Origin: Girardia tigrina | Lineage: Eukaryota | Assembly: GCA_001938485.1 (NCBI GenBank) | Contig: MQRK01239066.1 | Location: 14,639-78,638 of the forward strand | DNA length: 64,000 nucleotides | Reading direction: 5' to 3' | Part shown: piece after piece, positions 5,930-55,620 of the stretch | Numbering within the stretch: position 1 is the first letter of the stretch | Layout: every line of letters begins with the position of its first letter | Notes under the pieces: model-generated | Database searches by the model: none | What the model saw: only the letters and a program-made list of their open reading frames with translations | Told to the model about the DNA's origin: nothing | Position numbers and translations under genes: made by a program

Positions 5930-8585
5930 TATAAAACAAGAATCATTTACACCTGATATAGTGTGTGCAGAAATATGTGCTTTAGATTCATATATCGATA
6001 AACTTATTTAAGGACAAGGACAGATTTTTGAAAGCCAAAGAAACATTAAATCTACGTGATGGTACAAATTTATATAGATGTATAGATAAGTACAAGAACA
6101 TTTTTATGGCTGGAAAATGGGATATCGGGAAAACTATATTAACCAGACATGAAATAAAAACATCTAGTGTGCCAATTTTACAGAAGCCTCGTAGACAGCC
6201 GGCACATTTTGAATATCACATCAAAAAGCAATATTGAATTTAGAAAGACATGGAATAATAGAAAAATGTTGTTCCCTTTGGAACACACCAATGGTTTGTG
6301 TGTAGAAAAAGGAGAAAAGGGAAATCCGTTTGTGTTTAGATTTTCGGCTCCTAAATCAAGTAACTGAGAGATCAGCTTTTCGTATTCCAAATTTTGATGA
6401 GATGTTGGATTCTTTAATTGGAATGAAGTGGTTTAGTCCAATAGATCTGGGTAATGCATATTACCAGGTCGAGTTGGAAAAATCTTCAAAGATGAAAATG
6501 GCTTTTTCTACAAGAACCGGACAATTTTGTTTTGCAAGAATGCCATTTGGTATAGCAGCGGCACCGGCTACTTTCCAAAAATTAATGAATGAAATATTGA
6601 AGAATATGCTATGGAAAGAGGCAGTGGTATATCTTGATGACGTGTTGATTTTTTCAGAAATAGAAGACGAGCATTTAAAAAGATTGGACCGGTTATTTTC
6701 GAGAATTCAATCAGCAGGCCTAAGAATTCAGAAGGAGATGCGTTTTCTTGGACATATTGTGAATAGAGAAAGAATCAAAAGGGATCCGGAGAAAATCCAG
6801 ACAATAGTAGATTTTGAACAACCAAAATGTGTAAAAAAATTACCCAGTTTTCTAGGACTGTGTAATTATTATAGGAAGTTCATTGTAGATTATTCAAAAC
6901 TAGCAAAACCGTTGGAAGCAATGTGTGGAAGTTCTAAAGATAGACTTTATTGGAACGTATCTCATTCAGAGGTTTTTAAAAAGTTAAAAACAGCCATAAC
7001 AATTGCCCCTGTATTATGCTATCCAAATTTTAAAAAATAGTTTATTTTAGATACAGAAGCATGTTTCGATACAATTGGCGCGGTTCTTTCTCAGTTAGAT
7101 GACAAAGGTGAAAAGTGAGTCATCGCGTATGGATCAAGGTCGATGTCGAAACATGAAATAGGTTGTTGTATAACAAGGAAAGAATTGTTAGCAATATTTC
7201 ATTTTACCCAACATTTTAAACATTATCTTTACGGTGTACATTTTAAACTGAGAACGGATCACAAGGCAATTGTTTTTATGATAACAACAAAAAAACCAAT
7301 TACTCCGCCATTTCACAACAGGATGAATTATTTAAGCAGTTTAGATATGAAATTAGAATATAGAAAAGGAGAAATACATCAAAATGCAGATGTGTTGTCT
7401 CGGAATGAATGTACATTATGTTCACAGTGTATGATTCAACACGAGCAGCCAAAATTAGTAAAACAGAAAGTGAGAATGTTAGCAATAGAGGAAGAGAGAT
7501 ATCCCATACCATGGCAACAGAAGAGCACAGAAAAATGGAAATTATTGGACAAATAAAGAACAATACTAGTCAAACATTCAAATTATCCAAAGGATGTGTC
7601 AGAACCCTAAATGACAAGATTTGGATTCTAAAAAGGGAACGACATGCTTGTATAATCATTTTCCATAGATACTTATCTCATGGTAGATTTATGAAAACGT
7701 ATTCATTTATGCGAAATGAATATGATATGGAAGATTTCATGGAACAAGTTAAAATAGAAACAAAAAGCTGCATTACCTGTCAGACAGCGAAAACTTACAC
7801 AGGAATAACTAAAGAAGAAACAAAGACTCTTACATCGAAAAGACCGTTTGATGACATTTATATTGATTTTTGCGGACCGATGCCGATAATAAAAGGAAAG
7901 AAATTTATCTTAGGAATCATAGATATATTTAGTTTAATGGCTCTCAGTAATCAAGATGAGACTACAACGATACAGACAATTTTACAACAATGGATATTTA
8001 GGTTCGGAGCTTCGGCTTGCATTTATGTGGACCGAGGAAAGGTTTTCGAGTCGCGTTCGTTTCTTGAATTTACAAAATCCATTTTAATTGACGTATAATA
8101 AGTCAAGTCCTTACCATCACATTACAAATGGGATGATAGAGCGCCAATTCCGCACCATCCGAGATTTCTTGAATGCATCTTTAAAGAATGAAGGAAGAAA
8201 TAATTTGATAGATATTTTACCAGAGATTGAATTTAGTATAAACGCTCCAAGACAAAGTTCAACTGGGTTTAGTCCGGCCGAAGTTATTATCGATAAGCGT
8301 ATAACATTAGATGGATCACGTCACTATGAATTGAATAACAGGAAAATTATTGAAGTTAAAATACTTGAGTCAAACGCATCACCAGTGGAAGCACAGAAAC
8401 GTGAATTTAAGGAAGGAGATTTAGTGTTAGTTAAAGTTGAAAATCGTCAGAAAGGATCTGATAGATATGAAGGACCACTATAAATTAGTCGCAGAATACA
8501 TGACAGAAGCTTCGAACTAAAAAAATAAAACCGGACGAGTAATCTATAGAAATATAGAATGGCTAAAGCCTTTTAAAGCAGGGGG
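5930..8585 (+). pseudogene. Decayed Ty3/Gypsy pol (RT, RNase H, integrase)
   Basis: Motifs LCLDFRLLN, DLGNAYYQV, MPFG, YLDD, FLGLCNYYRKFI, RKELLAI, RTDHKA, IDFCGP, NGMIER and RYEGP occur in Gypsy domain order across frameshifted ORFs 6028-8483. Confidence 0.95.
8575..8585 (+). other. Polypurine tract of the Gypsy element
   Basis: AAAGCAGGGGG lies at the end of integrase and is immediately followed by TG (LTR start). Confidence 0.8.
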
Positions 8586-10435: not shown

Positions 10436-13400
10436 CAGTGCTTTTTTTGTAAAAAAATAGGTGCCGGTACTACCGTCTTGTCACGTATAAATGGCGCACG
10501 CCATTTATTTAAATTCTTTAATTGTAACAATTTTTGAAAATTTTTGTAAAAAATTCGAATAATAGGCGCACTCAAATAAATGACGCATGTAATAAAAATT
10601 TAAAGGCCATAAATATAACAAAAATTAAATAAACAAATAGAGCAAGAAATTTATTCAATATTCATTACAATAAACAAATATCCCCCTATAAGAGAGCAAA
10701 TGAATCTTACGCTCTTTAAAATGGATTTTATAAGTACTGGATTCATTGATTTTAAGATCATAATCAAGAATAGTTAATGTAATATCAGTTTCCAATATAT
10801 CTACCAAAACAACAAATTCGACTTTGCTCTGGGAATTTTTTTCGCTCCTTATTAGCATTTTTTCTTCATCATCAAAAAGGCCACTTAAATCTTCATTCTC
10901 ATAAATTTTATTTTCAATTGATATAAATATATTCTTAATCCATAAATCGTAATTTTCAGTTCATTTAAGTGCTTCATAAATAGTTTTATATAGAGAATTT
11001 ACGGTACTACTCGTCGTCCAATTTATTGTGTTTGTATCAAAGAAATTTTCCACAACCAAGTCCTCGAGAATATCTTTTTCTCCTTTGATAATTGAATTTT
11101 GAAAGCAAACTCGTAATGATCGATGTAAAAGACCAAGATTATCCATGTTAAAGTCTTTAAAAATTCCACAACAATAAAAGCCTTTTTTAATTGATTCTTG
11201 GGATTTTAAGGATGCCCATTCTGAAAAAACCATATAATTTGGTCTTTTTATGTTTCCGGCATTTGTTTGCAATGACCGATCATTTAATGCCATTGTTACA
11301 TAATCGTCATATTTTTCATCATAAAAGCACTGAAACGATCGTCCTAAACATACGTCAATGGGCTGAATTATCCCTGTCACGTTCGGCGGGATAATTCTAA
11401 AAATGACATTGTATTTCTTATCATAGATCTCTTCAATTTCTTTTAAAACTGCTAAATGACAGCCATAACTGTTACAAATTACGAGAACAGGTTCCTTTTC
11501 TAGCCATGTCTGCGGGCGTTTCAGGATGACTCTTCGGAGATAATTTTTAAGTATCTCCTGATACCACATTCCTGTCGAATTAGTCTCAACATCGAATCCA
11601 GGTTTTACAGTCAGGGGATTCTTTAATTTAGAAAAAAAGTAAATGTTGATTGATAATTCTTCCGTTTGCTGAAATTGTTGGTGTAAAGGTGTATTTATGA
11701 TGACTACTCGTTGCTTTTCGAAGAAATATTTCTTTAGTTCCTTTGTTTATTATTGTTTTTGCGGGCTCTTTTTCGAATTGTCTTGGAATGTGATCAAAGT
11801 TTATTATGTTTTCTTCTTTAATTCCTTTTTCCTTTATAAAATTCACACATTCATATACAAAATTAATCGCTATCATTTTGTAATTTTCTGGCAATTTTCT
11901 GGCTGTAGTCTTCACTCTTTGAACCAAATTATATCGTTGTTTAACGTTTGAACACCAACCGTTTGATGCATCAAACGCCTCCAATTTGTCTATTTCCGAA
12001 CTAATTTGTTGTTGATTCGGTAAATTGTCACCGAATTGATTTTGTAAATGTTGAATAATTTCATTTCTGAAAAATTGTGCTTGAATTCTAATATATTTTG
12101 TAGTAACTGTTAAACCTAATTCATTACGACTGGTGATCCATCTGAAGAGTTTTGTTTCTAATTCGGGGAATTCTGCTTTTTTCCTCCACCAATCAAGTGC
12201 CGCCTCTCTCTGATTTTTATAGACGGATTCACAACTGCTTTTTTTAATTCCTCTTCACTAGAAATCCATCTTCGTATCGTAGATTCGGGAATAGAATGTT
12301 GTCGTGCAACAGCTGTAATACTATCTGTGGATTGTTTGATCTTGTTGATAATTCTAAGTTTTTCTGCTATCGTGCAAACTTTTGTATTTTTTATGTAAAT
12401 TCATTTTATAGTATTAGGATTTATGGATTTATGGTATATTGATCCATTATATACCATTTGCCAGTCAATAACTACTTTTTGCCTAACTACTATTTTTTGC
12501 AATAACTACATTTTTTCAATTTTTTTTGTGAAAATTTGAATAAATTGCGCGCGTCGTTTATTCAAATAAATGGCTTGTGTGCAAATTGCTCAAATAAATG
12601 GCGTGCGCCATTTATACGTGACAAGACGGTAGGGTGAGCACATTTCTGTTCTGCCATTCAGGGATGCTATTTTTGAAGTGGACGAACGAGAGTGCCGAAG
12701 GCACCTGAGCGCGAGCGTCGAAGACGCTAAGCTGCTCGCGATTAGGGGTTCTGGGGCGGAGCCCCAGCAGCCAACGGATTTTCAGACATTTGGCTTGAAA
12801 AGGAGCTCGTTTTTGGGCCATAAAAAAACTAATTTTGTCAATTGTATTTTTCAAAAAGAAAAAAGTAAACGGGTTTCTTCTGTGACACCTTCTGTCGTTA
12901 TTTCTTCACTCAGTCTGATTTTTTTATTTGCCGGAAAATTGCTAGAATGCGAAGCCGAAAAGAAATCAATAATCTTCTTCATTTTTAAAGTGAGATAAAT
13001 TAATTAAATATAATTTTATAAATCAATCAATTATAAATTTTTAAATTTGCTCTTTTAATGTTTTAAATTTAAATTTGTTTTATTTTAAAATTTCTATTCA
13101 TTGCGTTTAAAANNNNNNNNNNNNNNNNNNNNNNNNNNNNNNNNNNNNNNNNNNNNNNNNNNNNNNNNNNNNNNNNNNNNNNNNNNNNNNNNNNNNNNNN
13201 NNNNNNNNNNNNNNNNNNNNNNNNNNNNNNNNNNNNNNNNNNNNNNNNNNNNNNNNNNNNNNNNNNNNNNNNNNNNNNNNNNNNNNNNNNNNNNNNNNNC
13301 GATGCGAATATTATATTATACTACGGTAGACCATTTTTTACATTAATTTTTTAATGTGTTTAAGTGTTATAGATGCAATTTTAAAATTTCAAATTCCGAT

Positions 13401-13548
13401 TTATCATAAAATTATTATGAAATATGAATAATATAAAAATTTAAAAATATACATTAAAAAACGAAAAAATTATATTTTTTTTATTTTTCATCACTTGAAA
13501 AAGGTGCCGGTACCCCGTACCGGCGCGTACCGTTACAAAAAAGCACTA
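10436..13548. mobile_element. Non-autonomous TIR element (probably hAT) inserted in a (TA)n tract and interrupted by a pogo element
   Basis: CAGTGCTTTTTTTGTAA ... TTACAAAAAAGCACTA termini. GGTGCCGGTAC occurs near both ends. (TA)n flanks both sides. GC-rich GGGGCGGAGCCCC internal motif. Confidence 0.75.
10473..12629 (-). mobile_element. Full-length pogo/Tigger-family transposon (2157 bp) with a frameshifted transposase (~12405-10655)
   Basis: Perfect 38-bp TIRs CCGTCTTGTCACGTATAAATGGCGCACGCCATTTATTT with TA on both sides. The transposase shows an HTH, a CENP-B-type segment FDASNGW, and the DDE_1 motifs IINFD, TFTPTISANG and PPNVTGIIQPIDV. Confidence 0.92.
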
Positions 13549-13623
13549 TATATATATATATATATATATATATNNNNNNNNNNNNNNNNNNNNNNNNNNN
13601 NNNNNNNNNNNNNNNNNNNNNNN

Positions 13624-13659
<36 letters not shown>
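13549..13659. repeat. (TA)n microsatellite containing an assembly gap
   Basis: Directly visible. Confidence 0.95.
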
Positions 13660-13660
<1 letters not shown>

Positions 13661-13679
13661 TTTACAAAATATAAATATA

Positions 13680-14530
13680 CAATGGGGGAAATTGAATTAA
13701 AGACACTATGTAGAAAACATATATTTCATTAATAATGAATGGAAAAAAACACTAAATGCAAAGACAATGAAGGCAGAATAGCAATAGTAGAGGGATAGGA
13801 ATATGTCGGAATTGCATGCAAGTCAATATTCTGAAGTGAATCCCTGTTGTGCATGAAAGACCTCAGTCTCCTTGGCATTGACTATATCAAACTCTGGCAG
13901 TATTGTGATGTTATTTCATGATTTCATACAAAAGTAATGGTGGTTTTCAATTCGGAAATTGTTCTGGGTCAGTGAGCTCTGACTTTGTTTTTCAAATCCC
14001 TCCAAAGATTTTCAATTGGGTTGCAATCAGGACTTTGTTCAACCCAATTCATATGTTTGAATCCAAACTGAGCAAAGTTTTCCAGAACAAACTTTAAGCG
14101 GTGACAAGGAGCTGCATCATCCTGCACTGTTGTATTTTTAATGTTCCTAAATTGTTCAATGACTGTTTTCCTTAATTTATTCTGAAGGATGAAACTATAC
14201 CAATGAAAATTCATTCTTCCTCCTTGTTCCAGGAAATGCATTTTCCCAACACCCCTATGTGAAAAACTGTTCCATAAATGAACTGCAAGGCTGGGTTTTA
14301 CACTTAGGCGTAGATATATGAGGTTAATAAACTTCTCCAGGGGCTCTTTAAATCCTTGCTCTTTTTCATTCATTAAATAGAGATATATGTGTTTCATCAG
14401 TAAAAGCAACAGTTTTTTCCAAAATGCTGGAGTCTCAGAGGAGTTATATGAATGAATCTTCTTGTTTCTTTTGAAACAGCTTTTGTCAAGCTCCATGAAT
14501 TAGCCGAGTCGGAATTCGAGTTGCCGAACA
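13680..14530 (-). mobile_element. Tc1-like element, 3' part with a DD..E transposase fragment (13969-14496)
   Basis: Motifs QDDAAPCH and QSPDCNPIENLW; TA|CAATGGGGGAAA terminus. Confidence 0.85.
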
Positions 14531-18782: not shown

Positions 18783-20498
18783 CATCAATAAATATAAAAA
18801 AATATTTTAATCAAAATATTTTAATTCTATGTGAAAGTGATTTAAAATATTTTAATAGTGGACCGTAACGTAAAGAATTATTTTTTCATAAATAAGTTAT
18901 TGAAAATATTTTAGTAAGAAATTGTAATTTAGATTTGTTCGAATAATTAGAGGTTTAGAAATAAAATTTAAATTTCTCAATCAAGAACAATATATAACTA
19001 CGAAAGTTTTGTGGAGAAGAAAGTTTTAGATTTCCAATATCAATAAAATGTATTGGAATTCATACAAATGTTCTTAATATTAATGATGATAAAAAAGATA
19101 AAAAATTAAAGTTTAATGCAAATATTTATTTATAAATCTTTAAAACTGACAAAGAAAGAAAATATGAAAGTAACAAGAGAGACATTATGTTATAATTTTA
19201 TATTGTTTTGAAATAATATTATTGTCGAAAGTATTGATTATTAAATTCATTTAAAAATGGATAGAGATTTTTAATATAGTATACGGATATATGATTTACA
19301 TATTTTACATATTTTTACATATATTTTTACTTGCAATCGCCAAGGAAGAAGCAATAAATAAAGGAAAATTCAATTCCATAAGTAATTGGCATAGAAATAT
19401 AAGCAAGGAATACAAAGAATATTAGAAGATATTCATCCGGAATTCTTATTTCTTTTCCATTTAATAATCAATTTTCTAACTTCCTTTCGAGTTTTTCCTA
19501 ATATTAATCAAATTGAAAATCGTCAACAATATTTGACTTTATTATTCCAAATTATTTTCTTATGTTGGCGCATTTTGACTAAAACCTTATTCGGTGATCT
19601 CGGGATCTTTTTATTTATGTTATTTTGTTCGAAGTTAAATATATTTGTTTCTATCGTTATTATTATTAAAATTATTTTTTTATTATTTAAAATTTTACAA
19701 AGACTCGTTAATTGAGATTTGTTTAACTCGAAATAAATTTTGAAACGAATGTTACCCAATATTATTTTTACATTAATCTTTAAATAAACATATAATATAA
19801 AATATACTGATTAAAAATTAGTATTATCCTTACAAGAAACTTCTTCGGAGTATTTTATGGAGATTCAATGATTTAAAATAACAAGGTTTTGTGTTTTATT
19901 GCAGAAACTTTATTAGAAAACTTTTTGTCTACAAAAAACAATTATAACTAAAATAAATATAATATTATTTTATTATTTAATTATTATAAAAATTAAAGTT
20001 TTATAATAATATAAAATGAACAAGTTTAGTTAAAGATTTTTTAAAAAATTATGTTTATTTATTAAAAATATAAAATCTTTCAAAATCAACTGAAATCGGT
20101 TTTAATAAATTTTGAATGAACGTTTTTAGCAAAATATACAACTCAAAATTTTTGTCAATTATTTCAATTAAATATCCTTTCAGAGCTCGGCAATTGTTTT
20201 CCTAATCAATTCACTCTGAATTTGATATATAATTTCTACAAAATTCACTCAAGATTCGACAAAATCGTCTCAACAAAAACTCACTTCAATCTCGAACAAT
20301 TTAATAAAAAATATTAGCAAAACAACATTCTCTATCAATACACGAAGCACAATGCTCGCACATGTCAAATCAAACACACCAAACAAGCACGCCGACTCTA
20401 AAAATCAAAATCAATCTGAACAAAGAAGTCTCTTTGGATTGAATATTAATTATTTTTATATTTTTAAATAATTTTTGTAATTTTGTAATAAGTTTTGT

Positions 20499-20692
20499 AA
20501 TTGATTGCATGAAATCACGTTAATCAACAATTCTCAATAAGCTTGTTGAGACTGCCGATGGAACATTGATTCTAGGGAAACGTGAATCATAGTTTATTAG
20601 GTTACGTTGCCCTAAAATGAATATTCAATCAGCAGTCTCAAGCTACTTATTGAGAATTTTTGATTAGCGTGATTTCATGTAATTGATTACAT
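20499..20692. mobile_element. Older inverted pair of PLE pLTR fragments
   Basis: Diverged copies of 22240-22340 in head-to-head orientation. Confidence 0.85.
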
Positions 20693-20719
20693 CATTGTAG
20701 TAAAATCAATTATTGTAGT

Positions 20720-21403: not shown

Positions 21404-21883
21404 TAAATTAAATTTGTTAACCAAAAAATAAGTTATATAAAACTAGTCTTATCACTAAACAAAACATTGTAAAGATTCGGAAGAATGTCTTTTACTCCAA
21501 CTGCTTTTGTTTGTTTCTTAAATCTTTCTGTGTTTTCTTTTTTAAAATAAATATAGCTTAATTTAATTCGTTAAGTAAACAATATAAATTGTCCTTTGTC
21601 TTATTCATAAAAAGAAAATGATGTATTGTGTTTGGAAATAAAAGATATTCTTCCATTAGAAATCGTTAATTGAATTTTTTCATATACGTTTACAAATACA
21701 TATTAAATTTATGTTTTTTTTAATTTTAGATTCTCTCTATAAATTTTATTAATATTTTTAAACAAATTTTTCACCTAAAATTAATTAAAAATTATGTATA
21801 CATTTGTATAAATTGATAAAACGAAGTCCGGATGAAAATCTTCTTTTAATAACCAAAGTCATCCATTTAAAAATATATTTTAA

Positions 21884-21922
21884 GACAATATATTTCGACG
21901 GATCTACCGTCATCTTCAGGTC
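21884..21922 (-). ncRNA. Minimal type-I hammerhead ribozyme (PLE pLTR)
   Basis: GAC CTGAAGA T GACGG-TAGAT-CCGTC GAAA TATATT GTC on the minus strand. Confidence 0.85.
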
Positions 21923-22386
21923 ACTAATTAATAATCAATTCACCTGTATATAAATACAAAAATGATGATTATGTAATCGATTGCATGAAATCATGCTAAT
22001 CAAAAATTCTCAATAAGCTGGTTGAGATTGCCGATTGAACATTGATTTTAGGGCAACGTGACCTAATTAACAATGCTTCACACGACACTCACAACATCAC
22101 ATTTACATTTTTTTAGGAAAATAGGACATTTTTTTAGAACATAGGAAAAAATGTAAATGTGATGTTAATTTTGATAATTTCAAAATTCTGTGTAAGCATT
22201 TTGACAGTTATTGGGAGAGAGTGTCGTGTGAATCATTGTTAATTAGGTCACGTTGCCCTAAAATCAATGTTCAATCGGCAGTCTCAACCAGCTTATTGAG
22301 AATTTTTGATTAGCATGATTTCATGCAATCGATTACATAATCATCATTTTTGTATTTATATACAGGTGAATTGATTATTAATTAGT

Positions 22387-22425
22387 GACCTGAAGATGAC
22401 GGTAGATCCGTCGAAATATATTGTC
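22387..22425 (+). ncRNA. Minimal type-I hammerhead ribozyme (PLE pLTR)
   Basis: Stem I GAC/GTC, core CTGAAGA, stem II GACGG/CCGTC, GAAA, palindromic ATATAT. Predicted cleavage after AUU (22422). Confidence 0.85.
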
Positions 22426-23199
22426 TTAAAATATATTTTTAAATGGATGACTTTGGTTATTTGTATAAATGTCCGATAAATCCACTCTTGTAGACAATTC
22501 TTTCAATCCTTATAGGACAAAAGCACTTCACCTAATAATGAATATTGTAACATAACTTATGTAATTCCTTTTAAAAATTTATAATCAAATTTATAGTATA
22601 ATTTCATAACAAGAATACAGATTAGAGACATTCGAAATGTCAACGAAATTCGACCTCCAGTAATTTTGCCATTGTTCTTCGAGGATCGTTTCTGTACTAG
22701 AGTAAAATAATTGCGTCTTAATTTGAGTTCTTTTTTTCAATCTATGATCGAAATATTCTCAAAAAAACTACTTTTTCGATTTTATTTTTTCCATAGGAAA
22801 AATGTAATCTAATATTAACTGATTTTCGTCACATTCATTTTGAATAAAACGCATGAAAAAGGAACGGTATTATGATTTTCTAATCAAAAACCGATTTTTA
22901 AGTCATTCAAAGATTGGACCACCCCGAAACATCAAAATTCTTTTCTAAATGGGCGGTTATTTGATTACCCAAATTTTGTTACCAAATGGAAGTCGGATAT
23001 GCAAAACAAATTCAGCAGAATTAGGTGAACACGGTTAAAGGGTTCAAAAATATTATGTTGATTATAGAGATTAAAGAAATATAAATTTAAGTAGCACAAA
23101 TAGTCTAAGGTATATTTATTTATTATTTATTTTATAATCTTACAAAATAATTCCGCAGCAAAAAAGACTCTCTGATTCAACTCTTTATTGCGCAATTGT

Positions 23200-23784
23200 C
23201 CATAAAGCTTAATAAAAATATCTCAAATGTTTTCCTCTGGAATTTGGCTCTAAAATACTTTTAGTTTTGTTTTGAGAATGTTTTTGAAATTTTGTTGGAT
23301 CCTTTCAGATCAGTACAATTAGTTGAAGCAAATTTTTTTCCGCCATAGAAAGGTTTCTGACTCCAAAGGCTGTGTTGTTTCTGAGCTGTCTCTGTTTAGT
23401 TTTTTACAACATATAAACGTTCCATTAACTGTATTTTGTTAAGTTTATCCTCGGCGTTTTACTGAAGATTATTTATCATTTATATAATAAATCCCAGTAT
23501 TATGTTCGTCTTTTTTTCACTGTCTTGAACTAAACTATCTTAAAGTTTTTTTATGAAAATTATTTAAAATAGTAAATAACAAAGAATTTAAATTATGATA
23601 AAGTGTACCAAAAATTAATTTAAAGAGTAAAAATAATAATTTCAAAAATAATGTGTAAATATTGTATTTAGAATAAAGATTTTAATTCTTTATTTTTAAA
23701 ATCGTTTTTCAAGCTCCACAATACCGGTATTGCCGAAGTTAATTTCGTTCCCAAATACCGGTAATACCGATATTGTAAACCCTA
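23200..23784 (-). mobile_element. hAT-like terminal remnant
   Basis: The terminus reads TAGGGTTTACAAT on the minus strand, with AATACCGGTA(T/A)T subterminal palindromes. The left boundary is approximate. Confidence 0.5.
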
Positions 23785-24503
23785 GTTTTCACAAAAAATA
23801 TAAATATCTGCGTTTTCAGAATTAAATTATTTAATTAATTAATAATTTGTTATGTAACGTTAAAATAATTTATTTTAATTAATTTAGTCTAGAAAAAATT
23901 CAAAAAGAAGTTGTCTTCAAAGAAGAATCTCATGGAATGGTCAAGCATAATTAAAGTATTAATTTTAGTAAATATAATCGGCATTGAAGAATTTGGGGTC
24001 CTGAAAACTGAGTCATTAAATGATAATAAAATTAATAATTTCAAATTGTAATTATAATTTTTTTTTTCATATACACAGAAGAATTTCAACGAATAATTGA
24101 AGAAAAATAAAAAAAAAAGATTTTTAATAATATGATATTCTGTAATTATAATGATTCTCGACTACGGAAATAAATATAAATAATCATTTATACTTTATTT
24201 TGTTATTATTTTTCTAAGTCTTGATGACTGTTCGATATTGTTGTTATTATTTTAATTAAATTGATTCTTTCCCACTTTTTTCGAAGCAAAATTGAAACAA
24301 TTTTAGTCAATGAACCAACAAAATATTATCAAAAATAATATTTCATTTATTTCCAGATTTTCAGTTATATTTTGAATAATTTAACTTTGGGATCAGTGAA
24401 CAAATCTTTAAAGCGATTTGACAACATTATTTTACTGGGAAAAAATAAATAAAATATTACTTTTAATTAATAATCTAAATGATTATTAAAATTTACAAAG
24501 TTA

Positions 24504-24900
24504 TGTGGAGCGTTCAATAAGTACTCGGCCTGACAAAGAAAACGAAGTTCAAAAAGGGAAATTTTTATAACACGACAAGCTTAACGTATATAGTCATCAT
24601 TTTTTAACATCAGGTTCGTTCTGCTGGACACACTTCCGTCAACGAAAAATCAACTTAGAAAACGCTTTTTTGAAAAACTTTGAAGATCATGCGGAGAAGA
24701 CATCTTCCATAGCAACCTTCAAATCGTTTTAGGATCAAAACTGGATGCCTCTCACAAGCTTCTTTAGCTGTCTAAAGAGGTAAAAATTGCTAGGTGTCAA
24801 ATCTGAGCTGTATGGTGGTTGATCCAGTAGAACTAGTCCAGCATCTTCAGTTTTGGCCCGAGAAATGCCTGCTGTGTCCATTGTCGTGGAGAAGAGAGAT
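24504..24900 (-). mobile_element. mariner 3' fragment with one TIR
   Basis: TA|TGTGGAGCGTTCAATAAGTA is related to the TIRs at 37154 and 43060. Minus-strand PPYSSDLTPSNFYLF motif. Confidence 0.8.
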
Positions 24901-25438
24901 TATTCACACCATCGAATGCAAATAAAAATCAAATAAATAAAGAACAAGTGCGAATTGCCAACAAAATTATGTAAATTATATTTGGTAATGAAATATTAAA
25001 ATCATGATTTATGTCTACCAAAACATTATGGCATTAAAAAACGTGAATTTTAAATTTAAATCTTGACATAACGACTCTTGTTGAAATATTTCTAATCTTA
25101 CGACCAGCATTACAAGTATTTACATGAAATACTTTAATAATTTGTTTGCAATAAATATATTTTTGATATTTAATATTATTAATATTTTAAAATTTAATAC
25201 TAAAATTCGATGAGATTTTAGATTTTTTACAATTTCACTTGTCTTGGTCTAATTGGGGTCACACGTGTTTTAGTGATGAAATTCGAAAAGAATTTAATTA
25301 CGGTTTAATGTATATTTGGTTTGATATTTAATGGTTACTTTTAGTCGATTTTAAAGAACAAGTTAAATGTCAATCTTCAATAAACACATAATATAAATTT
25401 TAAATTAGATATTTGTTAAAACATATTTAAAAAATTTT

Positions 25439-25479
25439 TTATACACGTTTCAATCAGAATATTTGGTCATCTTCAGTAA
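25439..25479 (-). ncRNA. Minimal hammerhead ribozyme motif
   Basis: TTA CTGAAGA T GACCA-AATATTC-TGATT GAAA CGTGTA TAA. Core intact; one stem-II mismatch. Confidence 0.65.
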
Positions 25480-25590
25480 CTTAATGATTTGATAATTCGA
25501 GGGTATAGATGTAAACCAAGTTAATTGATCGTTTACTTTGAATTATATTGGATAATAATTAACAATTACTTATTCATTATTATTATTATT

Positions 25591-25890
25591 ATTGATAAAA
25601 CGAAGTCCGGATTACTTTCAAAAAGCATTTTGACAGTTATTGGGAGGGAGTGTCGTGTGAAGCATTGTTAATTAGGTCACGTTGCCCTAAAATCAATGTT
25701 CAATCGGCAGTCTCAACCAGCTTATTGAGAATTTTTGATTAGCATGATTTCGTGCAATCGATTACATAATCATCATTTTTGTATTTATATACAGGTGAAT
25801 TGATTATTAATTAGTGATCTGAAGATGACGGTAGATCCGTCGAAATATATTGTCTTAAAATATATTTTTAAATGGATGACTTTGGTTATT
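25591..25890 (+). mobile_element. Young PLE pLTR copy with a short inverted tail, inserted in (TAT)n
   Basis: Nearly identical to 22194-22460. It is preceded by ATTGATAAAACGAAGTCCGGAT, which is also at 21812-21833. Confidence 0.9.
25816..25854 (+). ncRNA. Minimal type-I hammerhead ribozyme
   Basis: Same as 22387-22425 except stem I is GAT/GTC (U-G wobble). Confidence 0.8.
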
Positions 25891-26407
25891 ATTATTACTG
25901 TTTATAATTTTTGTATTACATATTTATTGAAGATATTTAATATTGATACTTCTTTACTTTTACAATTTTGGATATTAATAAAGGGATTGTAGTGTTTGAT
26001 CAACAACGATTCACAATACGACCTCTGAAAATATGTCTTAAGAATAGAAAACTTGTCTTTTGAAATTAATCAGCCTCGTTTTGATCATTAGTTTCTTGCA
26101 GCTCTTGTTTCCCGAAAATTGAAAAAAGGAACCCATACTAAATGAACTAGTTGTGGAGAATCGTGTAGTTTGTGACGAGAGCTCCAAGAGATGGCAATGA
26201 TATTGCAAATTCCCGTTTGCTTATTTCATGAAAATTAATTGTGATTGTTCTTTAGAACATGTACAGTATATAAAATACTTTTGAAATTCAGTAAAGAAAC
26301 TCAAAGATTGCAATTTCATTTAGTTTATATATAAGTATCTGATAATAAAATAATATATAATATTTTTGTCTGATAAGATTAAACGAAATAGTCAAACTTC
26401 CCTTCGA

Positions 26408-30031: not shown

Positions 30032-30322
30032 ATTACTCAGGGTAATTAGCTCATAGAATTTTTCAGGAGTTGAGTCGGTTGTATCATTGTGTAGGCAAAC
30101 TCGCCCAAAATAGCATGCCTTTTACGGAGGTGGATTGCGAGGCCTTGCCATCCATACTATGTTGATAAGCATCCCAACAAGGCAAACTTCGGACACTTTG
30201 GTCTAGAGAAGAGAGCTCTAGTTTTTCAAGGACACCACGTGGAGGTATGTCCGACTGGCTTAACACAGGTTACCAATGTAACAGGTCCCTGAGACCCTTA
30301 GTAAAAGATTGACATTTACAAA
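30032..30322 (+). repeat. Dispersed ~290-bp GC-rich repeat, copy 1
   Basis: Highly similar to 34125-34414. Confidence 0.9.
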
Positions 30323-34124: not shown

Positions 34125-34414
34125 TTACTCAGGGCTATTAGCTCATAGAACTTTTCAGGAGTTGAGTCGGTTGTATCATTGTGTAGGCAAACTCGCCCAA
34201 AATAGCATTCCTTTAACGGAGGTGGATTGCGAGGCCTTGCTATCTATACTATGTTGGTAATCATCCCAACAAGGCAAGCTTCGGACACTTTGACCTAGAG
34301 AAGAGAGCTCTAGTTTTCCAAGGACATCACGTGGAGGTATGTCCGACTGGCTTAACACAGGTTACCAATGTAACAGGTCCCTGAGACCCTTAGTAAAAGA
34401 TTGAAATTTACAAA
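34125..34414 (+). repeat. Dispersed ~290-bp GC-rich repeat, copy 2
   Basis: Highly similar to 30032-30322. Confidence 0.9.
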
Positions 34415-35449: not shown

Positions 35450-36750
35450 CAGTAGAACTTCGCTATAACGGACTCGCTTATACGGACCTTCGGTTAGTAC
35501 CGAGGAATATTTTAATCCGGCAAAACCATGCTACCTTCAATGTAATATTAGTCGTATATTACGGACTCTGTTATGTCGGACTTTTTGTTTTTGTGAGAAT
35601 TCACAGGGTCGTCTGTTTTTCCGACTTGATTGAGTTGATGGGGAAGGATTATATTGCAGATCGATACAAATTGTTTCGGATCTGTTACTATTAGTCGAAC
35701 TAATTAATTCACTGATGATTTCGATTACCGGAAAATTAGTTTTTCTTGTCACTCGTGCGAGATGTGGTACGATAATGCGATGAGATACGTTTAATAATTA
35801 TATTTAAAATTAAATTATTTGTGATCGATTTTATCGATCATTTTTAAATCATAATATTTCGCTGCGCTGACCTTTGAAGTTGTTTTTTAACCAGTCTTCA
35901 AAGTCATCTTCAAAAATTGTGGATGTCATCCAGGCTTTCTTGTTAAACGTAAAGGGCACTAGAAGTGTTTGGATATTCTTAAAGCATCTAGGACGCTCGT
36001 ATTTTCCAATCACCAACATCAACTTTTCGGAACCGTCTATATTTGCACACACAATAACAGTTATACGCTCTTTACTTTTCTTACCACCATGAAATGAACT
36101 ATTAACTATTAACATCCAAAAATTAACAACCTCAATACAGTCACCTCAACATTCATCCCATCAAATACAACACACTGTCTGCAGTCATATGACATGAGTA
36201 TAATCAAGAAAATCAAGGTCAAATATCGTCGACGTATTGCTAAGCATATCATCAACAGAATTGTAAGAAATCAATCTTGTCAGATTAATATTATTGATCC
36301 CATGAACATGCTTCGATCAGCTTGGAAAGATGTTACTCCAAAGACAATTGCGAATTGCTTTCATAATGTTGGTTTTGTGGTGCAAGGAGGCAACTACACT
36401 GACAACACATTATTATCAACTTTCTTTGATACGGACGATGAAGCCAATGATTATGACTTTCCAATGATGCGCCTCTGTACAGACAGTGTAAAATTTCATG
36501 AATTTGCTATGGTTAATGACAAATTTTATTTTTTCGATCTACAAAGAGAGAGTGATATTATGAGTGGTATTTTGACATTGTAAAATTCTAAAGCAATGGC
36601 CGAAAACGTTGAGGAGGAAGAGAAATCGCAGGATGATGAGCAAGGTGCTGTTTCGCTCAACTGTAAGTCAATTATGACCAACGTATAAAGATAAAAAAAC
36701 AATAAGAAAAAGATAGAAAATGTTTTTAAAAACCACATTTTTCCTAAGCC
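35450..36750. mobile_element. Rearranged Tigger/pogo element
   Basis: TIR-like CAGTAGAACTTCGCTATAACGGAC. HGGKKSKERIT...KAWMT is on the minus strand, while PSNTT...II...K..YR...AW..VT...IANCF is on the plus strand. Confidence 0.8.
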
Positions 36751-37153
36751 TTAACTATTAACTTAATTTTAATTAAACAAAACAACAAATCACATAATTA
36801 TTTCCTCTTCTATCTTTTTTGCCATATAATAATAAAACATCAGGAAATTGTTTAAAACAGGAAAAATTTTTTCATTACATTCCGAGCTGTTTTTATTATA
36901 GTTATATAAAGGAAGGCAAAGAGCGAATCGAAATGTGAAGAGAAAAATATCTTGTTCAGAAATATTTCCTAAATAAGAATGATTTCGTATAATAATTGGA
37001 AGGGGATGACGAAATTTTTTAACTGAATGTTTTCGATCTATGAATATGAGGACAGACTTTGATATAAGTATTGAGAAGTTATCTTTTCATTCCATATTAG
37101 TTACACGGTTTTTCTATAACAATAAATTTTTCTATTATTTCAAAGCACTAGTA

Positions 37154-38715
37154 CGTGAGGCGTTCAATAAGTAGTGAGACTCTTGCAGAAAGATACAAAT
37201 GAAATAACTCAAACTAAAAATATACATTTGCTAATTCACATAAGTAAATATTATATAAATTGGGGGCCAGGTCGTTTCTACAACGACGTTTCTCCTCCGA
37301 TCGTTTATCCTCCCGGCTTATATATAATTTAATTTAATAGCTCACAATTAAAATTTTGTATTTCTATATTCATATTGTTTTCATTTTAAATAAAGATGTT
37401 GTCATTGAATATTGATTTTATTAGATAAGTATTCTTCAATTAATGAATAAATAATTTGAATAGTTTCAAGTTTTATTAGTTAAAATAATATAAGTCAAGT
37501 GTTTTTAGTAACTTATTTATGAGGTGAAAAAATAAATAATACATGTACCGAGACTATAAACGTCGGAAGATTAGAAACGTTGGAGGAATCACGACGGAGG
37601 AGAAATGATACGTACCCTATAGCTTGTTATAGCTAGCTACTTTTTGTTTAAGTTGATTTAATGTATATTTTAAAATGTCTCTCGAAAGCGTGAAATATCA
37701 CAGTGGGAGTTGATTAGTTTTTAAGAAAGACAAGAGTAGGGAAGAAGTCAATGTAGAATTGATAATTGCTTATGATAATGATTGTCTTTTTAGGACAGCA
37801 ATTTATCGTTGTACAATTACTTTCATATTGGTAGAACTTCCGGTATTGATAAGGAAAAGCTCGGAAGGTATTGTTAAATTAATCAAACAATATCTGATGA
37901 ATATAGAAAAAGTTTTATTTTGCGAAAAAAAGGTTATAACTTCAGAATTAAAAATATGTCTTAATGTGTGTGGAGGAAATATTAGCACCTGGATCAGTGT
38001 AATTGGCATCATAAACTTATGCTCGCGCTTCATGTAACGATTTTTAACCACAGAGTTGCAGAGAGAACCTTTAGATTTTAGTCGATGGTGGAGATAGTAC
38101 CATGGATGAAACAGCGTTATACCTGTATGTAACAGAGTCTAAGTCGGAATCTTTATAGTGGAAATTCCGTACAGAAAGCAATTCTAAAATATGAAACCTT
38201 CATCGAATTACTGAAAATATCTTATGTTTCTTTTTAGATGAAAATGACATTATCCTGACAGATTTTACTGAAAATAATGTTAAAATCAACAGCTCACGTT
38301 ACTTCAATCTTGTAAAAAGAAATTAGAAAGCTCCGAAGAAAAAGTAGTATGGAAAATTTATTATTTATATGACAACGCCTCTATTCACACAGGTGGAGTT
38401 TTATTTAGGGTTGGGGAATAAAACTGCTTCCATGTCCTCCATACTTGTTTAATCATCTTAAATAAACCATGCTAGGTCAGAATGCCTCGAAAAAGTTTTA
38501 AATAATACAGTGACGCTATTGTTTCCTAAAAAGTCTCCAGTCATCTTCAAAATCGCTTTCAGAAGCCTAGTCACACTTTGGAAAAATTGTGCTGATAAAA
38601 ATGGAAATTATTAATAAATTAATATTTTGAGAAATAAACCCTGTGTGACTTCCTTCTTGCAAACACAAATAATATTTTGCTTCATTTCTTTCTCTAAGAG
38701 TCTCACTACTTTTTT
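37154..38715 (+). mobile_element. Old mariner with a nested MITE
   Basis: TA|CGTGAGGCGTTCAATAAGTAGTGAGACTCTT and a partial right TIR AAGAGTCTCACTACTT. Decayed motifs TMDET, YDNASIH and CPPY. Confidence 0.8.
37262..37617. mobile_element. MITE with repetitive inverted ends inside the mariner 5' region
   Basis: CGTTTCTCCTCCG repeats on the left, CGGAGGAGAAA repeats on the right, and an AT-rich core. Confidence 0.65.
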
Positions 38716-38803
38716 TATCATGTATCAGATAAGGATTTATTATAAATGATATAAAAATTATTCTTAAAAAAAGTTGGTATTTAAATATTATATCAGATTA
38801 ATA

Positions 38804-40145
38804 TTAGGTTGGTCGAAAAATAATGGCTGTTTTTGAGCTTTATACTTTGTTTATCTACTTTGATATGTATATAAGTTTAAATGCATTAGTGTTAGATATT
38901 ATTTGAAATCTTATGCCTANNNNNNNNNNNNNNNNNNNNNNNNNNNNNNNNNNNNNNNNNNNNNNNNNNNNNNNNNNNNNNNNNNNNNNNNNNNNNNNNN
39001 NNNNNNNNNNNNNNNNNNNNNNNNNNNNNNNNNNNNNNNNNNNNNNNNNNNNNNNNNNNNNNNCAATATCAATAAAGCGTTTGGCAAGGGAACAACTTCT
39101 GAGCGCACAGTGCAACGATGGTTCCGAAAATTTTCTGATGGAGATGAAAACCTTGAAGATGAAGAAGGTCGTGGTCGTCCAGGTGCTGTGAACAACGAAA
39201 ATTTGAGGACAATGGTGGAAACAGATCCCCGTATAACAATCAGAGAACTTGCAGATGGGTTGGCCATTAGACATTCAACAGTCCTGGATCATTAAAAACA
39301 ACTTGGAAAAATCAAGAAAATTGATGAATGGGTTCCACATGATTTGAATGAAAATCAAAAGAACCGACGCTATGAAATTTGTTCTGCCAATCATCTTCGC
39401 AATAAAAACGATCNNNNNNNNNNNNNNNNNNNNNNNNNNNNNNNNNNNNNNNNNNNNNNNNNNAAAACGATCCATTTCTTGATCGTATTGTTACCTGTGA
39501 TGAGAAATGGATCCTATATGATAACCGACGTCGATCTGCACAGTGGTTGGACAAAGATGAAGTACCAAAACACTTTCCAAAATCGAAACTAACACCCCGT
39601 AAGGTTGTGGTGACAGTTTGGTGATGTGATGCTGGAATCATCCACTATAGTTTCTTGAATCCATGTGAAACAATCACAGCGGAGAGGTACTGTCATGAAA
39701 TTGAAGAAATGCATAAAAAATTGAAAACCCTTTGTCCGGGATTGGTCAATCGAAAAAGTCCCATCCTTCTTCATGATAACGCTAGACCTCATATTTCAAA
39801 AGTGACTCTTCAAAAGCTTAATGAGTTGGGCTATGAAACCCTGTCTCATCCACCATATTCACCAGACCTCTCGCCAACGGACTTCTACTTTTTCAGGCAT
39901 TTGTACAATTTCATACGTGAAAAAAATTTCGAAAACTAAAATGATGCTCAAAATGCCTTCCAAAAATTCGTCGCTTCGACAACCGATGCATTTTATGCTG
40001 ATGGAATAAAACAACTTGTTTCTCGTTGGCAAAAATGTATTGATGCCAACGGTTCATACTTTGATTAATAAACTTTTGTTTCTGTGAATTTGCACGTCTT
40101 TGAAGTTTGTGTCCGAAAACCGAAATTATTTTTCTACCAGCCTAA
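38804..40145 (+). mobile_element. Full-length mariner with a disrupted D,D34D transposase
   Basis: TA|TTAGGTTGGTCGAAAAATAAT ... ATTATTTTTCTACCAGCCTAA|TA. Motifs WVPHDL, TCDEKW, HDNARPH and YSPDLSPTD; stops present. Confidence 0.95.
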
Positions 40146-40850
40146 TATATCAGATGTTTAGAAGAAAAAATAATTATTTAAATATAATCTAGATATTTTA
40201 ACAAAAGTACAAATTATATCTAAAATATGTTCCATCAAATTCGGATGAAAATAAAAAAAATAACAAAAAAATTGATAAATTTTAGAAAGTAATGGCAAAT
40301 ATATTTAGTAAAACTTTGAAGTTTGAGAACATTTTAAATACATAAATAAATAAATATTTAAAAGACGACAACTAAAAATAGCGAAAATTGAATGTTCTGT
40401 CATTCAATCATAATTTTTAGTTATTTATTAACAGGAAAAAAACTTAATTTATTCTGGAAGTATCTCCTTTTCTGTGAATTTGTCATTAATATTCTTCTTT
40501 GATAAAATCTGATTTACTTTAATTTAATTTATTTACGAAATTCTTTAGACTGACAGCGCTAATTGTGCCAAATAATATTAACAGACAAAAATAAGTGACT
40601 TTCTGAAAATGTCTTTTGCAAATATAAAATGAATTATTTATTTATTTTTTTGGTTGTAATTTGTAATTAATTTTTTGATTAATCAAAAAATAACAAATAT
40701 GTTTTAAAGACAGAATTGATACATTAAAAAAACATTTTATTGTATTTTTTTTAAATAATTATTGAAAATTGTGTTATAATTTAATATAAATAATTTAGTA
40801 AAATATTATTAGGAAATTTAAAAAAATATAAAAAATAATGGTAAGTTTTT

Positions 40851-40997
40851 TTTAAAATCAATAACGCCATTCAAAAAATTAAACTTTATTGTCGCAATAT
40901 ATTTACGTAGATTATGTTTGTATAATTATCAATTTGCAATATATGACAGAAAAATTGTTGTTAATTCAGTCTGAAGATGGCGTTATTGATTTTAAAA
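40851..40997. mobile_element. Small PLE pLTR remnant bounded by a ~20-bp inverted repeat
   Basis: TTTAAAATCAATAACGCCAT / ATGGCGTTATTGATTTTAAA. GTTAATTCAGTCTGAAGATGGC matches the 55531-55552 pLTR. Confidence 0.55.
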
Positions 40998-46789: not shown

Positions 46790-48220
46790 ATTATTTATCG
46801 TGAACATCTAAAATATCAATTTTCCATCGGGGTGGGAGAAACACATTTCCAAATACTAAACTCAACATACAAAATTCAACAAACCAATTTCAACATACCA
46901 AATTTAAAATATTCCTCACAATGCTGATTCTATTGTGGTGACAATAGTCTAATAATTTCAATGAATTAAAGATAGGAACAGAAAATAAAGAAAAAAACGA
47001 ACATTCCTGAAACATATTAAATTTGTTGACATGGTTTAAATGCAATATTTAGCATAATGTGTGGTATAGGCAAACTGATGAGATTACTATGAGTTAACCG
47101 ATAGAACCAACGTTAGCTTCTGTTTTTTTTTTCAAAGATTGAAAATAAAAATTTAATTTTTTGATGGGAATTTTTGATTATGTATTTTTAGTTTTTAAAG
47201 ATCAGGCCGATATACTTCCATTTCTTAATTTTATGATATCGTTTCGTCTAAAAGTTGCTTTTATTGTTGAAAATGAAACAAACTATAAATTTGGTATTCC
47301 TTAGTTTCCAGACTGGAATTTAAAGGAAGCAAACTGATACTGATTTATATACTTCAACGTTTTAGTGAACCGAAATATAAAAGAAACAATAAAAGAGGCG
47401 TAATTAATCTGTCATGTTCGTTGTCATCAACTTTTCATAAATATGTACAAAATGTTAATAAACTAAGTTATTTATTAAATCAGAAAAGTCATTCTAAAGC
47501 TTTTACTGAAAAATTAGTGTGAGAAACAGGGGATTATACAATTTTGAAAGATAGTTAAAAAAATCTGAGGTTTGCTTCTCCTAATGGTTCTAAAAAGATA
47601 TTAATAAAATACCTAAATATCTTTAAATTATACCTTATTGAATAAGGTTTATTTTAAATTATTTAAAAACTTTAAAAATGCATTGTTAAAAGCAACTAAC
47701 AATCAATTAAATTTGAAAATTATATCACGATCTCATCAAGTTCAAAACATATTCAGTAATAAAACTGTCACACCTTTAACACTTTGTTCTGATATTGTTT
47801 ATGAATATAAATGTAATGGGTGAGATGCCACTTACATTGGAGAGACTGCCCTTCCTCTCTGTAAACGAATTTAAGAACACGATCGAAAAGAGAGTAAGAG
47901 TAATATTGCTGAACATAAGAAAAAATGTTAATGTGACATTAATATTGATAATTTCAAAATTCTGCTTTAGCATTTTAATAGTTATTAGGAGGGAGTGTCG
48001 TCTGAAGCATTGTTAATTAGGTCACGTTGCCCTAAAATTAATGTTCAGTTGGTAATCCCACCCAACTTATTGAGAATTTTCGATTAGCATGATTTCATGC
48101 AATCTAATTCATAATCATTATTTTTGTATTTATACGCAAATGAATTAAATTATTAATCTATGACCCGATGATGATGGTTGATCCGTCGAAATATATTTTC
48201 TAGAAATATATTTATTAATA
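46790..48220 (+). mobile_element. Decayed, long PLE copy (RT - linker - GIY-YIG - pLTR)
   Basis: WYRQTDEITMS*PIEPTLASVF corresponds to the Y.Q..G.AMGSP RT motif. Also present: VYEYKCNG, YIGET, and a 3' end homologous to 22137-22440. Confidence 0.85.
48162..48200 (+). ncRNA. Degenerate minimal hammerhead
   Basis: GAC CCGATGA T GATGG-TTGAT-CCGTC GAAA TATATT TTC. Confidence 0.65.
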
Positions 48221-48724
48221 TAAGAATTTTGTTTTTAATAATAATAATATTAATAATAATTATTATCATCATTATCATTGTTCGAGAATCTGTTCGAGTT
48301 TCAGTTTTTTATCATGTTTGTTACTCAAGACTTTTTAATGCCTTTTGTCTGCTTTGGAACTTGAGTAATATCAAAAAAGATAACTTAATCTTTACAATTC
48401 TCTATTCGAATTTGATTTATAAATGATAAATGAAGGAAACAATTATACTTCTTATGTTCTTATTATATTATATTCTTATTATTATTATTATATTCTTAAA
48501 AGAATAGAAATAAACATTCTTAGAACATATTTGGTTTTCTGACATGGTTTTAAAATAAAATGACTTTTTAATATGACTGTCTATTAAAAAAATTATTTAT
48601 TTTACTAATTTATTGAGTTTAATACATATTTATGATTTTTATTTAATAAAAACATGATCTAAATTTTCTTTAAATTGTAATGAAAAAATAAGTGTATATT
48701 AAATGTTAAAACTTAATTAATTTG

Positions 48725-55069: not shown

Positions 55070-55620
55070 AATAAATCCCAAATACCATGAATCTAAAAAT
55101 TATTTCCCAATCAAATAAAATTCATGATATGTTCAGTAATAAATCTTCCACTCATCTCGTTTTGTGCTCCGATCTTGTTGATAAATATACTTGTAATGGG
55201 TGTAACACCACACACATTGGAGAGACATCTCGTCATCTCTGCAAACGGATCAAAGAGCATAATCGGTTGGATAATGGGAGCAATATTGCCGAACATACTT
55301 TAAAATGTAAAAAGAAAATCGGAGAAAATGATTTTAAAATTCTGTGTAATCGATTTAAAAATTACTGGGAGAGAGTAACGTGTGAGGCCTTATTAATAAG
55401 ATCCATGGATCCAAAAATTAATATNNAAGCTTCACACTCAACTTCTCTGTTAAACATTTTCAAATAGAGCCTTTATTACATGATTGATTGCATAATCACA
55501 TTTCTCATATATAAGCTGCAAAAAGCCAGTGTTAATTTAGTCTGAAGATGGCATAGGGTAATCCACTGAAATTAATTACAAAAATAAATTGTGAAAAATG
55601 GCGTTCACTTTTTAATTATA
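55070..55620 (+). mobile_element. PLE 3' end: GIY-YIG endonuclease ORF (55087-55467) plus pLTR
   Basis: Motifs KYTCNGCNTTHIGETSRHLCKRIKEH and RVTCEALLIRSMDPKIN. Confidence 0.92.
55539..55580 (+). ncRNA. Minimal hammerhead motif, imperfect stems
   Basis: AGT CTGAAGA TGGCATAGGGTAATCCACT GAAA TTAATT ACA, about 70 nt after the ORF stop. Confidence 0.6.

What the first reader, a model, noticed from the sequence alone, without database searches (positions are those of the whole stretch)
21812..25890. Two independent PLE insertions share both fixed endpoints (inverted tail start and direct 3' end)
Seen: both insertions begin with ATTGATAAAACGAAGTCCGGAT (21812, 25591) and both end at ...GACTTTGGTTAT (22460, ~25889). 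In the first, that 22-mer is the reverse complement of sequence lying beyond the GGTTAT point of the pLTR (a ~35-nt tail that may encode MTLVIKRRFSSGLRFIN). Inference: reverse transcription starts at a defined internal site of the RNA, while the true RNA 3' tail is copied inverted at the other junction. This would be a mechanistic footprint of PLE integration.
Basis: partly seen in the sequence, partly recalled or inferred. Interest (0 to 1): 0.7.

Follow-up and report, generated by a model that had tools for sequence, protein, structure and literature searches.

The report
Penelope retrotransposon's two known start sites
Two separate copies of a Penelope-type jumping gene each carry one "short" end and one inverted "tailed" end, matching two already described start points of reverse transcription; this is mostly ordinary, with a hint that the two start points are used as a pair.

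Summary
Two independent young insertions (21812-22461, 25591-25890) of a Penelope-like element (RT + C-terminal GIY-YIG, hammerhead motif in the pLTR) share an inverted 22-nt tail end and a direct end 36 nt upstream of it. The flanks are unrelated, and insertion A has a 12-bp near-palindromic target duplication. The tail is codons 23-34 of the element's own ORF. A sister-family protein runs on past the equivalent point, so the tail end is most likely a second internal start of reverse transcription, not the RNA's 3' end. Both starts and the 30-40 nt tail are published (PMC11167929, PMC8557442, PMC3846280). A distant-family insertion (L008) also has one tailed and one short end, but with the tail on the direct arm, and single-armed copies start at either site. 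So the polarity is not fixed. All 3 of 3 two-armed insertions with both junctions readable are mixed. That hints at paired use of the two starts on opposite target strands, which I did not find stated in six literature searches, but n = 3 is not significant. Verdict: new member of a known kind; interest 0.3.

The parts
21802..21813 (.). Left copy of the target-site duplication of insertion A (12 bp; the last 2 nt are shared with the element end); 10 of 12 positions palindromic
   Evidence: the 12-mer occurs only at 21802 and 22459 in the window
21812..21847 (-). Inverted 36-nt PLE tail = ORF codons 23-34 (+67 to +102 from the ATG); its outer end is the distal start site
   Evidence: 23 contigs of run X1 leave the reference at 21812 into mixed AT-rich sequence, agreement 0.54
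21848..22090 (-). Inverted arm of insertion A: last 30 codons of GIY-YIG, stop codon, pLTR, ORF codons 1-22
21884..21922 (-). Minimal hammerhead motif in the inverted pLTR; ORF ATG (21913) at the start of stem II; predicted cut after +27
   Evidence: motif scan, offsets; Rfam gave no hammerhead hit; cleavage not tested
22091..22135 (.). Central joint of A: a 21-nt inverted piece (22093-22113) after a skip of about 50 nt, then filler made of short templated repeats
22136..22461 (+). Direct arm of A, 5'-truncated: last 58 codons of GIY-YIG (57/58 identical to P0004), pLTR with hammerhead motif (22387-22425), ORF codons 1-22; ends at the short start site (+66)
   Evidence: 5' edge from loose ends at 22136
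22459..22470 (.). Right copy of the target-site duplication of A (first 3 nt, ATT, shared with the element)
25591..25612 (-). Inverted distal 22 nt of the tail; the whole inverted arm of insertion B
25613..25622 (.). Central joint of B: 10-nt filler resembling element sequence about 10-20 nt upstream of the direct arm
   Evidence: alignment
25623..25890 (+). Direct arm of B (268 nt): last 39 GIY-YIG codons, pLTR with hammerhead motif (25816-25854), ends at the short start site (+66); inserted in an (ATT)n tract, so TSD length cannot be resolved
25448..26066 (-). Older, decayed PLE of another family into which B inserted: GIY-YIG C-terminus at 26066-25926, hammerhead-like core at 25476-25448
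   Evidence: tblastn E 2e-5 to 1e-3; sequence read
47023..48238 (+). Older copy related to A/B (about 84% identical), decayed RT and GIY-YIG, ending at about the same short site in an (AAT)n tract; no inverted tail found
55075..55616 (+). Sister-family copy; its pLTR encodes residues 1-22 of full-length P0146 and then stops, at the homologous short site

Best explanation
Both insertions are 5'-truncated products of target-primed reverse transcription by an endonuclease-positive Penelope-like element. The element RNA has two internal start sites 36 nt apart in the first codons of the ORF (+66 and +102). Shown: the two recurrent ends, their position inside the ORF, the target duplication of A, and independence of the loci. 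Inferred: the GIY-YIG endonuclease nicks both strands of an AT-rich, near-symmetric target about 9-12 bp apart. Each 3'-OH, aided by 2-3 nt of AT/ATT pairing, primes its own cDNA, one at each start site. The two cDNAs grow towards each other, stop early, and are joined by microhomology-driven repair that leaves templated filler. This gives a head-to-head insertion with one short and one tailed end. Either start can sit on either arm. If only one strand primes productively, a single-armed copy with either end results. A protein dimer is the likely agent, by analogy with the AlphaFold2 dimer predicted for PAc; this was not tested here.
For: Tail = ORF codons 23-34, with the ATG at hammerhead stem II as in PAc. 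The short end lies about 15 nt after the same Trp codon in A, B, the 55k sister copy and L001, and near it in the decayed 47k and 57k copies. 23 X1 contigs leave at the tail end into mixed flanks; two sister subfamilies leave at about Trp+15 nt (15-26 contigs per run). A distant family has two end classes about 30 nt apart: 5 short and 3 tailed of 8 scored ends. 3 of 3 two-armed insertions with both junctions readable (A, B, L008) have one end of each kind, in both polarities. The two arms of B share no sequence, so neither was copied from the other. The TSD of A is near-palindromic, with ATT overlap at the junctions. PAc in vitro cuts and extends both strands, prefers ATT and starts at two internal sites that bracket the tail (PMC11167929).
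Against: n = 3: with independent ends, three mixed insertions would arise by chance about 1 time in 8-11. The short-end peak of this family (21847/21848) is not among the 13 loose-end rows shown (779 hidden), and the tail-end row is shown for X1 but not X2. The 47k and 55k copies show no inverted tail. L006 and L014 are single-armed with TSDs, so two-strand priming is not obligatory. In A and L008 both arms copy the same template stretch (243 and about 790 nt), which needs two RNAs, a tandem transcript or re-reading. Short ends in the distant family spread over about 10 nt. PAc showed no strand difference in start site, which does not by itself imply pairing.
Confidence: 0.6

Rival explanations
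1. One reading: the short end is an internal start, but the tailed end is the true 3' end of the RNA, copied from the other target strand.
For: The tail end is sharp in A and B and in 23 contigs of X1. It would also give one end of each kind per two-armed insertion. PAc showed a faint product probably primed from the template's 3' end.
Against: The tail lies inside an ORF that continues. No poly(A) or terminator-like end. PAc's dominant product did not change when the template was extended at its 3' end, and needed sequence beyond the distal start. The tail can sit on the direct arm (L008, L014).
Confidence: 0.12
2. One cDNA is started at the tail end, and the endonuclease then cuts the intermediate at the short site, so that the tail piece is flipped or lost during resolution.
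For: PMC8557442 ascribes the tail to EN-mediated resolution (passage). PMC11167929 reports that the D. virilis EN needed the tail for recognition. B could be one molecule cut at the short site with 14 nt lost.
Against: A and L008 contain the pLTR twice, which cutting and flipping cannot produce without a second synthesis. Direct in vitro mapping found RT starts at both sites.
Confidence: 0.13
3. The two start sites are chosen independently at each priming event, and the mixed pattern in three insertions is chance. Inverted arms may in part come from fold-back or self-priming on an antisense template.
For: Only three informative insertions. PMC3846280 proposes self-priming for palindromic centres (Discussion). 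A has a hairpin-forming centre, and the 20493-20695 relic is a head-to-head palindrome.
Against: The arms of B share no sequence, and A's inverted arm holds a tail that its direct arm lacks, so fold-back copying cannot explain either. The tail is reported as often present at only one end (Fig. 2 legend of PMC8557442).
Confidence: 0.15

Closest known systems
PAc (Poseidon of Anolis carolinensis), PMC11167929 (main text and methods read, parts 1-3 of 4; the two supplementary figure files gave almost no text)
   Same: RT + C-terminal GIY-YIG; ORF starts at hammerhead stem II with the predicted cut 26-27 nt on; two start sites inside the first ORF codons that bracket a tail; AT-rich/ATT targets; insertion near an ORF-pLTR junction (B)
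   Different: Starts here are at +66 and +102; PAc's dominant start is at +111-118. The paper does not, in the text read, state that the two starts are paired on opposite strands of one insertion. No biochemistry was done here.
EN+ Penelope insertions with inverted pLTR and tail: Adineta vaga Pen2a (PMC3846280, passages and Discussion read) and the general scheme in PMC8557442 (passages read)
   Same: 5'-truncated copy with an adjacent inverted truncated copy; 30-40 nt tail at one end; the pLTR holds the first ORF codons and the tail adds about 10-12 more; TSD of about 8-12 bp
   Different: Here pLTR = 22 codons and tail = 12 codons (Pen2a: 12 and 10). Insertion B has an inverted arm reduced to the distal 22 nt of the tail.
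L1 twin priming (PMC2837659, search listing only; mechanism otherwise recalled)
   Same: Both target strands prime cDNA, giving an inverted 5' part within one TSD
   Different: As recalled, L1 starts at the poly(A) end and the second primer lands at variable internal sites, copying non-overlapping template. Here both starts are fixed and internal, and the arms can overlap by hundreds of nucleotides.

Membership tests
EN+ Penelope-like elements | Single ORF with RT and C-terminal GIY-YIG | tested here: met
   P0004 (57/58 identical to A's coding piece) has RVT_1 (E 2e-12) and GIY-YIG (E 5e-5, above cut-off). The window holds only fragments.
EN+ Penelope-like elements | CCHH motif with two Cys inside GIY-YIG; DKG motif upstream of RT | tested here: met
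   CxxC between the two motif halves with downstream His residues in P0004 and P0139; DKG in full-length sister proteins P0146 and P0153; definition from PMC8557442 passages. The family's own N-terminal half was not recovered.
EN+ Penelope-like elements | pLTR with a minimal hammerhead motif and the first ORF codons | tested here: met
   Motif in all three young arms. ORF start proven for the sister copy against P0146 (E 1e-16); 7/22 in-register identity for this family, 17 of 100000 shuffles. Rfam found no hammerhead.
EN+ Penelope-like elements | 30-40 nt tail at one end; inverted 5'-truncated copy; variable TSD; AT-rich target | tested here: met
   36-nt tail, inverted arms and a 12-bp TSD in A; (ATT)n target in B
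EN+ Penelope-like elements | Full-length or partial-tandem pLTR-ORF-pLTR copy of this family | not testable with these tools
   No genome is held; no DNA hits in metagenome or viral contigs
Penelope/Poseidon clade | No CX2-5CxxC zinc finger in the RT-EN linker | tested here: met
   Only scattered single cysteines between RT and EN in P0004, P0139, P0146 and P0153
Penelope/Poseidon clade | RT phylogeny groups with Penelope/Poseidon references | not tested
PAc-type internal initiation | RT starts at both tail boundaries on an RNA that extends beyond them | not testable with these tools
   Needs RNA ends or an in vitro assay; the genomic ends fit
L1-type twin priming | First primer at a poly(A) 3' end; arms do not overlap (recalled) | tested here: not met
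   No poly(A); the arms of A overlap by 243 nt

The most novel reading that the evidence does not exclude
In two-armed Penelope insertions the two known RT start sites are used as a coordinated pair. A symmetric (probably dimeric) complex nicks both target strands and primes one cDNA at each start, so each such insertion has exactly one tailed and one short end, in either polarity. This would explain the head-to-head PLE structure, its one-sided tail and minimal cases such as B (22-nt inverted arm) with one mechanism distinct from L1 twin priming and from fold-back self-priming.
Probability: 0.45. Interest if true: 0.55.

Novelty: new member of a known kind. Interest (0 to 1): 0.3.

Why it matters
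The anatomy (tail, inverted truncated copy, two fixed ends) and internal initiation are already published, so the finding is mainly one more clean example. The residual value is a cheap, sharp test of an open point. How PLEs form inverted structures is described as unresolved in the papers read. A count of tail/short combinations at both junctions of two-armed copies in any PLE-rich genome would separate paired priming from independent priming, and this family is young and abundant enough in organism A to supply it.

Tried and rejected
Segmental duplication: rejected, flanks unrelated. Chance match: rejected. Fold-back origin of the inverted arm in A or B: rejected on sequence content. Fixed polarity (tail always inverted): rejected by L008 and L014. 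Obligate two-strand priming: not supported (L006, L014, 47k and 55k copies). No whole genome is held, so the genome-wide junction plot could not be made. Exact DNA pattern scans found 0 loci in metagenome and viral contigs. Protein-based scans found 0 relatives in genome and viral contigs and 15 loci in metagenomes. Of these, L002, L011 and L015, the direct arm of L010 and the inverted arm of L003 gave no readable end; the inverted end of L010 was rearranged; L007/L009 belong to another subfamily and were not scored; L005/L013 share flanks and were counted once; L001 was scored with the window's clade. Reads were laid for 4 of 21 listed runs on 21500-22218 only: X21 gave 0 reads and X9 one contig. 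The depth step at 21812 (about 220-fold and 180-fold) is partly trivial, since the flank is single-copy, and summed contig depth is no copy number. Rfam gave only three chance-level hits. A profile of N-termini did not pick out the tail peptide (E 1.3), and 5 of 7 pairwise N-terminal comparisons were not significant. The start-site region shows no unusual folding energy (z -1.3 and 0.1). PDB gave only weak RT hits. No complex prediction was obtained, so dimerisation stays untested. PMC522041 is not held.

Full report
1. Observation. The 22-mer stands exactly at 21812 and 25591 and nowhere else on either strand; about 1e-8 chance copies are expected. The 300-nt flanks on either side are unrelated. 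The three young 243-nt arms differ at 2-3 sites pairwise. These are two independent, recent insertions.

2. Anatomy. Insertion A (21812-22461) consists of a 36-nt inverted tail, a 243-nt inverted arm, a 45-nt centre with a skipped stretch and templated filler, and a 326-nt direct arm. It is flanked by a 12-bp duplication (21802-21813, 22459-22470) found only twice in the window and palindromic at 10 of 12 positions. Insertion B (25591-25890) consists of the distal 22 nt of the tail inverted, 10 nt of filler and a 268-nt direct arm. It sits in an (ATT)n tract about 35 nt behind the aligned C-terminus of an older minus-strand PLE. Its TSD cannot be resolved.

3. What the element is. The coding piece of A's direct arm is 57/58 identical to the C-terminus of P0004, a protein with RT and GIY-YIG domains. 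It has the CxxC between the GIY-YIG halves and no linker zinc finger, and full-length sister proteins carry DKG. By the criteria in PMC8557442 (passages) this is Penelope/Poseidon-type architecture; phylogeny was not tested. Each arm holds a minimal hammerhead motif (my scan; Rfam silent; class described in PMC4209133, first quarter read). The host is an AT-rich eukaryote rich in transposon relics, not identified.

4. Where the two ends lie. A frame opens at an ATG at the start of hammerhead stem II. The short end falls at +66 (codon 22) and the tail end at +102 (codon 34). That this is the ORF start is shown directly for the sister copy at 55548-55616: it encodes residues 1-22 of the 841-residue P0146 (E 1e-16) and then stops, while P0146 runs on. 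For this family the same frame matches P0146 in register at 7 of 22 positions (17 of 100000 shuffles) and P0153 weakly (1 of 1000 shuffles); five other relatives did not match. The short end lies about 15 nt after the same Trp codon in A, B, the 55k copy and L001 (59% protein identity), and near it in the decayed 47k and 57k copies. The tail is therefore internal coding sequence, with no poly(A).

5. Other copies. No genome is held. Of 21 listed runs, four were laid on 21500-22218. Two runs of organism A gave about 18,000 contigs each, one gave a single contig, and one gave none. In X1, 23 contigs leave the reference at 21812 into mixed AT-rich sequence (agreement 0.54), as expected for many independent insertions ending at the tail end. 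Loose ends at 21859 and 21863 (15-26 contigs per run) carry 11-13 conserved letters and then mixed sequence; I read these as sister subfamilies ending near Trp+15. Against completeness: only 13 of 792 loose-end rows were shown, the family's own short-end position is not among them, and 21812 is not shown for X2. In a distant PLE family from metagenome contigs, 8 scored ends fall into two classes about 30 nt apart, 5 short and 3 tailed (rows left out are listed under Tried and rejected). L008 is a complete two-armed insertion with a 9-bp TSD, a short end on the inverted arm and the tail on the direct arm, the reverse of A and B. L006 (short end) and L014 (tailed end) are single-armed with apparent TSDs. 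The 47k and 55k window copies show no inverted tail.

6. Mechanism. Best reading (0.6): both ends are internal RT start sites. Both target strands are nicked, each 3'-OH primes a cDNA at one of the two sites with 2-3 nt of pairing, and the truncated cDNAs are joined by microhomology-driven repair. The ends, their ORF position, the TSD and the filler are shown; nicking, priming order, pairing and dimer involvement are inferred. B is informative because its arms share no sequence, which excludes copying of one arm from the other. A and L008 copy the same stretch twice, which excludes a simple cut-and-flip and differs from L1 twin priming as I recall it. Pairing rests on 3 of 3 mixed insertions, which independent choice would give about 1 time in 8-11. 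Rivals: true RNA 3' end (0.12), endonuclease resolution (0.13), independent choice or self-priming (0.15).

7. What is known. PMC11167929 (main text and methods read; the supplementary figure files gave almost no text, and may bear on start positions and end pairing) shows for PAc: cutting and extension of both strands, an ATT preference, two internal starts that bracket the tail, an ORF beginning at stem II, and a predicted dimer. PMC8557442 (passages) describes the inverted truncated copy and a 30-40 nt tail at either end, often at only one. PMC3846280 (passages and Discussion) describes the tail as extra ORF codons and proposes antisense self-priming. Six searches did not turn up an explicit paired-start model. 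PMC522041 was not held, and older subscription papers on PLE structure could not be read, so it may be in print. PMC9977147 and bioRxiv 2026.07.22.740005 (passages) added nothing.

8. Verdict. Real, correctly observed and largely explained by published work: a new member of a known kind. The open, testable remainder is paired use of the two starts (probability 0.45, interest 0.55 if true). Overall interest 0.3.

Noticed in passing
window 25448-26066 (-): Insertion B is nested in an (AAT)n tract just behind the ORF end of an older PLE of another family, echoing PAc's in vitro preference for an ATT motif downstream of an ORF-pLTR junction.
   Followed up: partly
window 20493-20695: Older head-to-head palindromic relic of the same PLE end (87-90% identical), both outer ends lost before the hammerhead motif.
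   Followed up: partly
window 57380-57620 (-), 59054 (-), 59269-59577 (-): Further decayed PLE ends of other families, with GIY-YIG fragments and hammerhead-like motifs; the window holds at least eight PLE relics.
   Followed up: partly
window 55542-55616: [quoted passage not shown]
   Followed up: partly
window 30033-30322 and 34125-34414: 290-nt direct repeat, 95% identical, around about 4 kb of higher-GC DNA without long ORFs; could be the LTRs of a decayed element.
   Followed up: no
window 149-1144, 6330-8483, 10961-14496, 36194-46375: Other transposon relics: piggyBac-like DDE_Tnp_1_7, an LTR-type RT-RNase H-integrase, several Tc1/pogo DDE fragments; many assembly gaps.
   Followed up: no
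L008 3044-3191: 150-nt near-palindrome abutting the short end of the insertion.
   Followed up: no
L010 7-116: Inverted arm in which the short-end region is repeated in tandem, as if RT restarted or jumped back about 45 nt.
   Followed up: no
window 21500-22218, run X9: A 1327-nt contig from a run labelled with a different organism holds the element's 3' part nearly unchanged; close relative, contamination or transfer not resolved.
   Followed up: no
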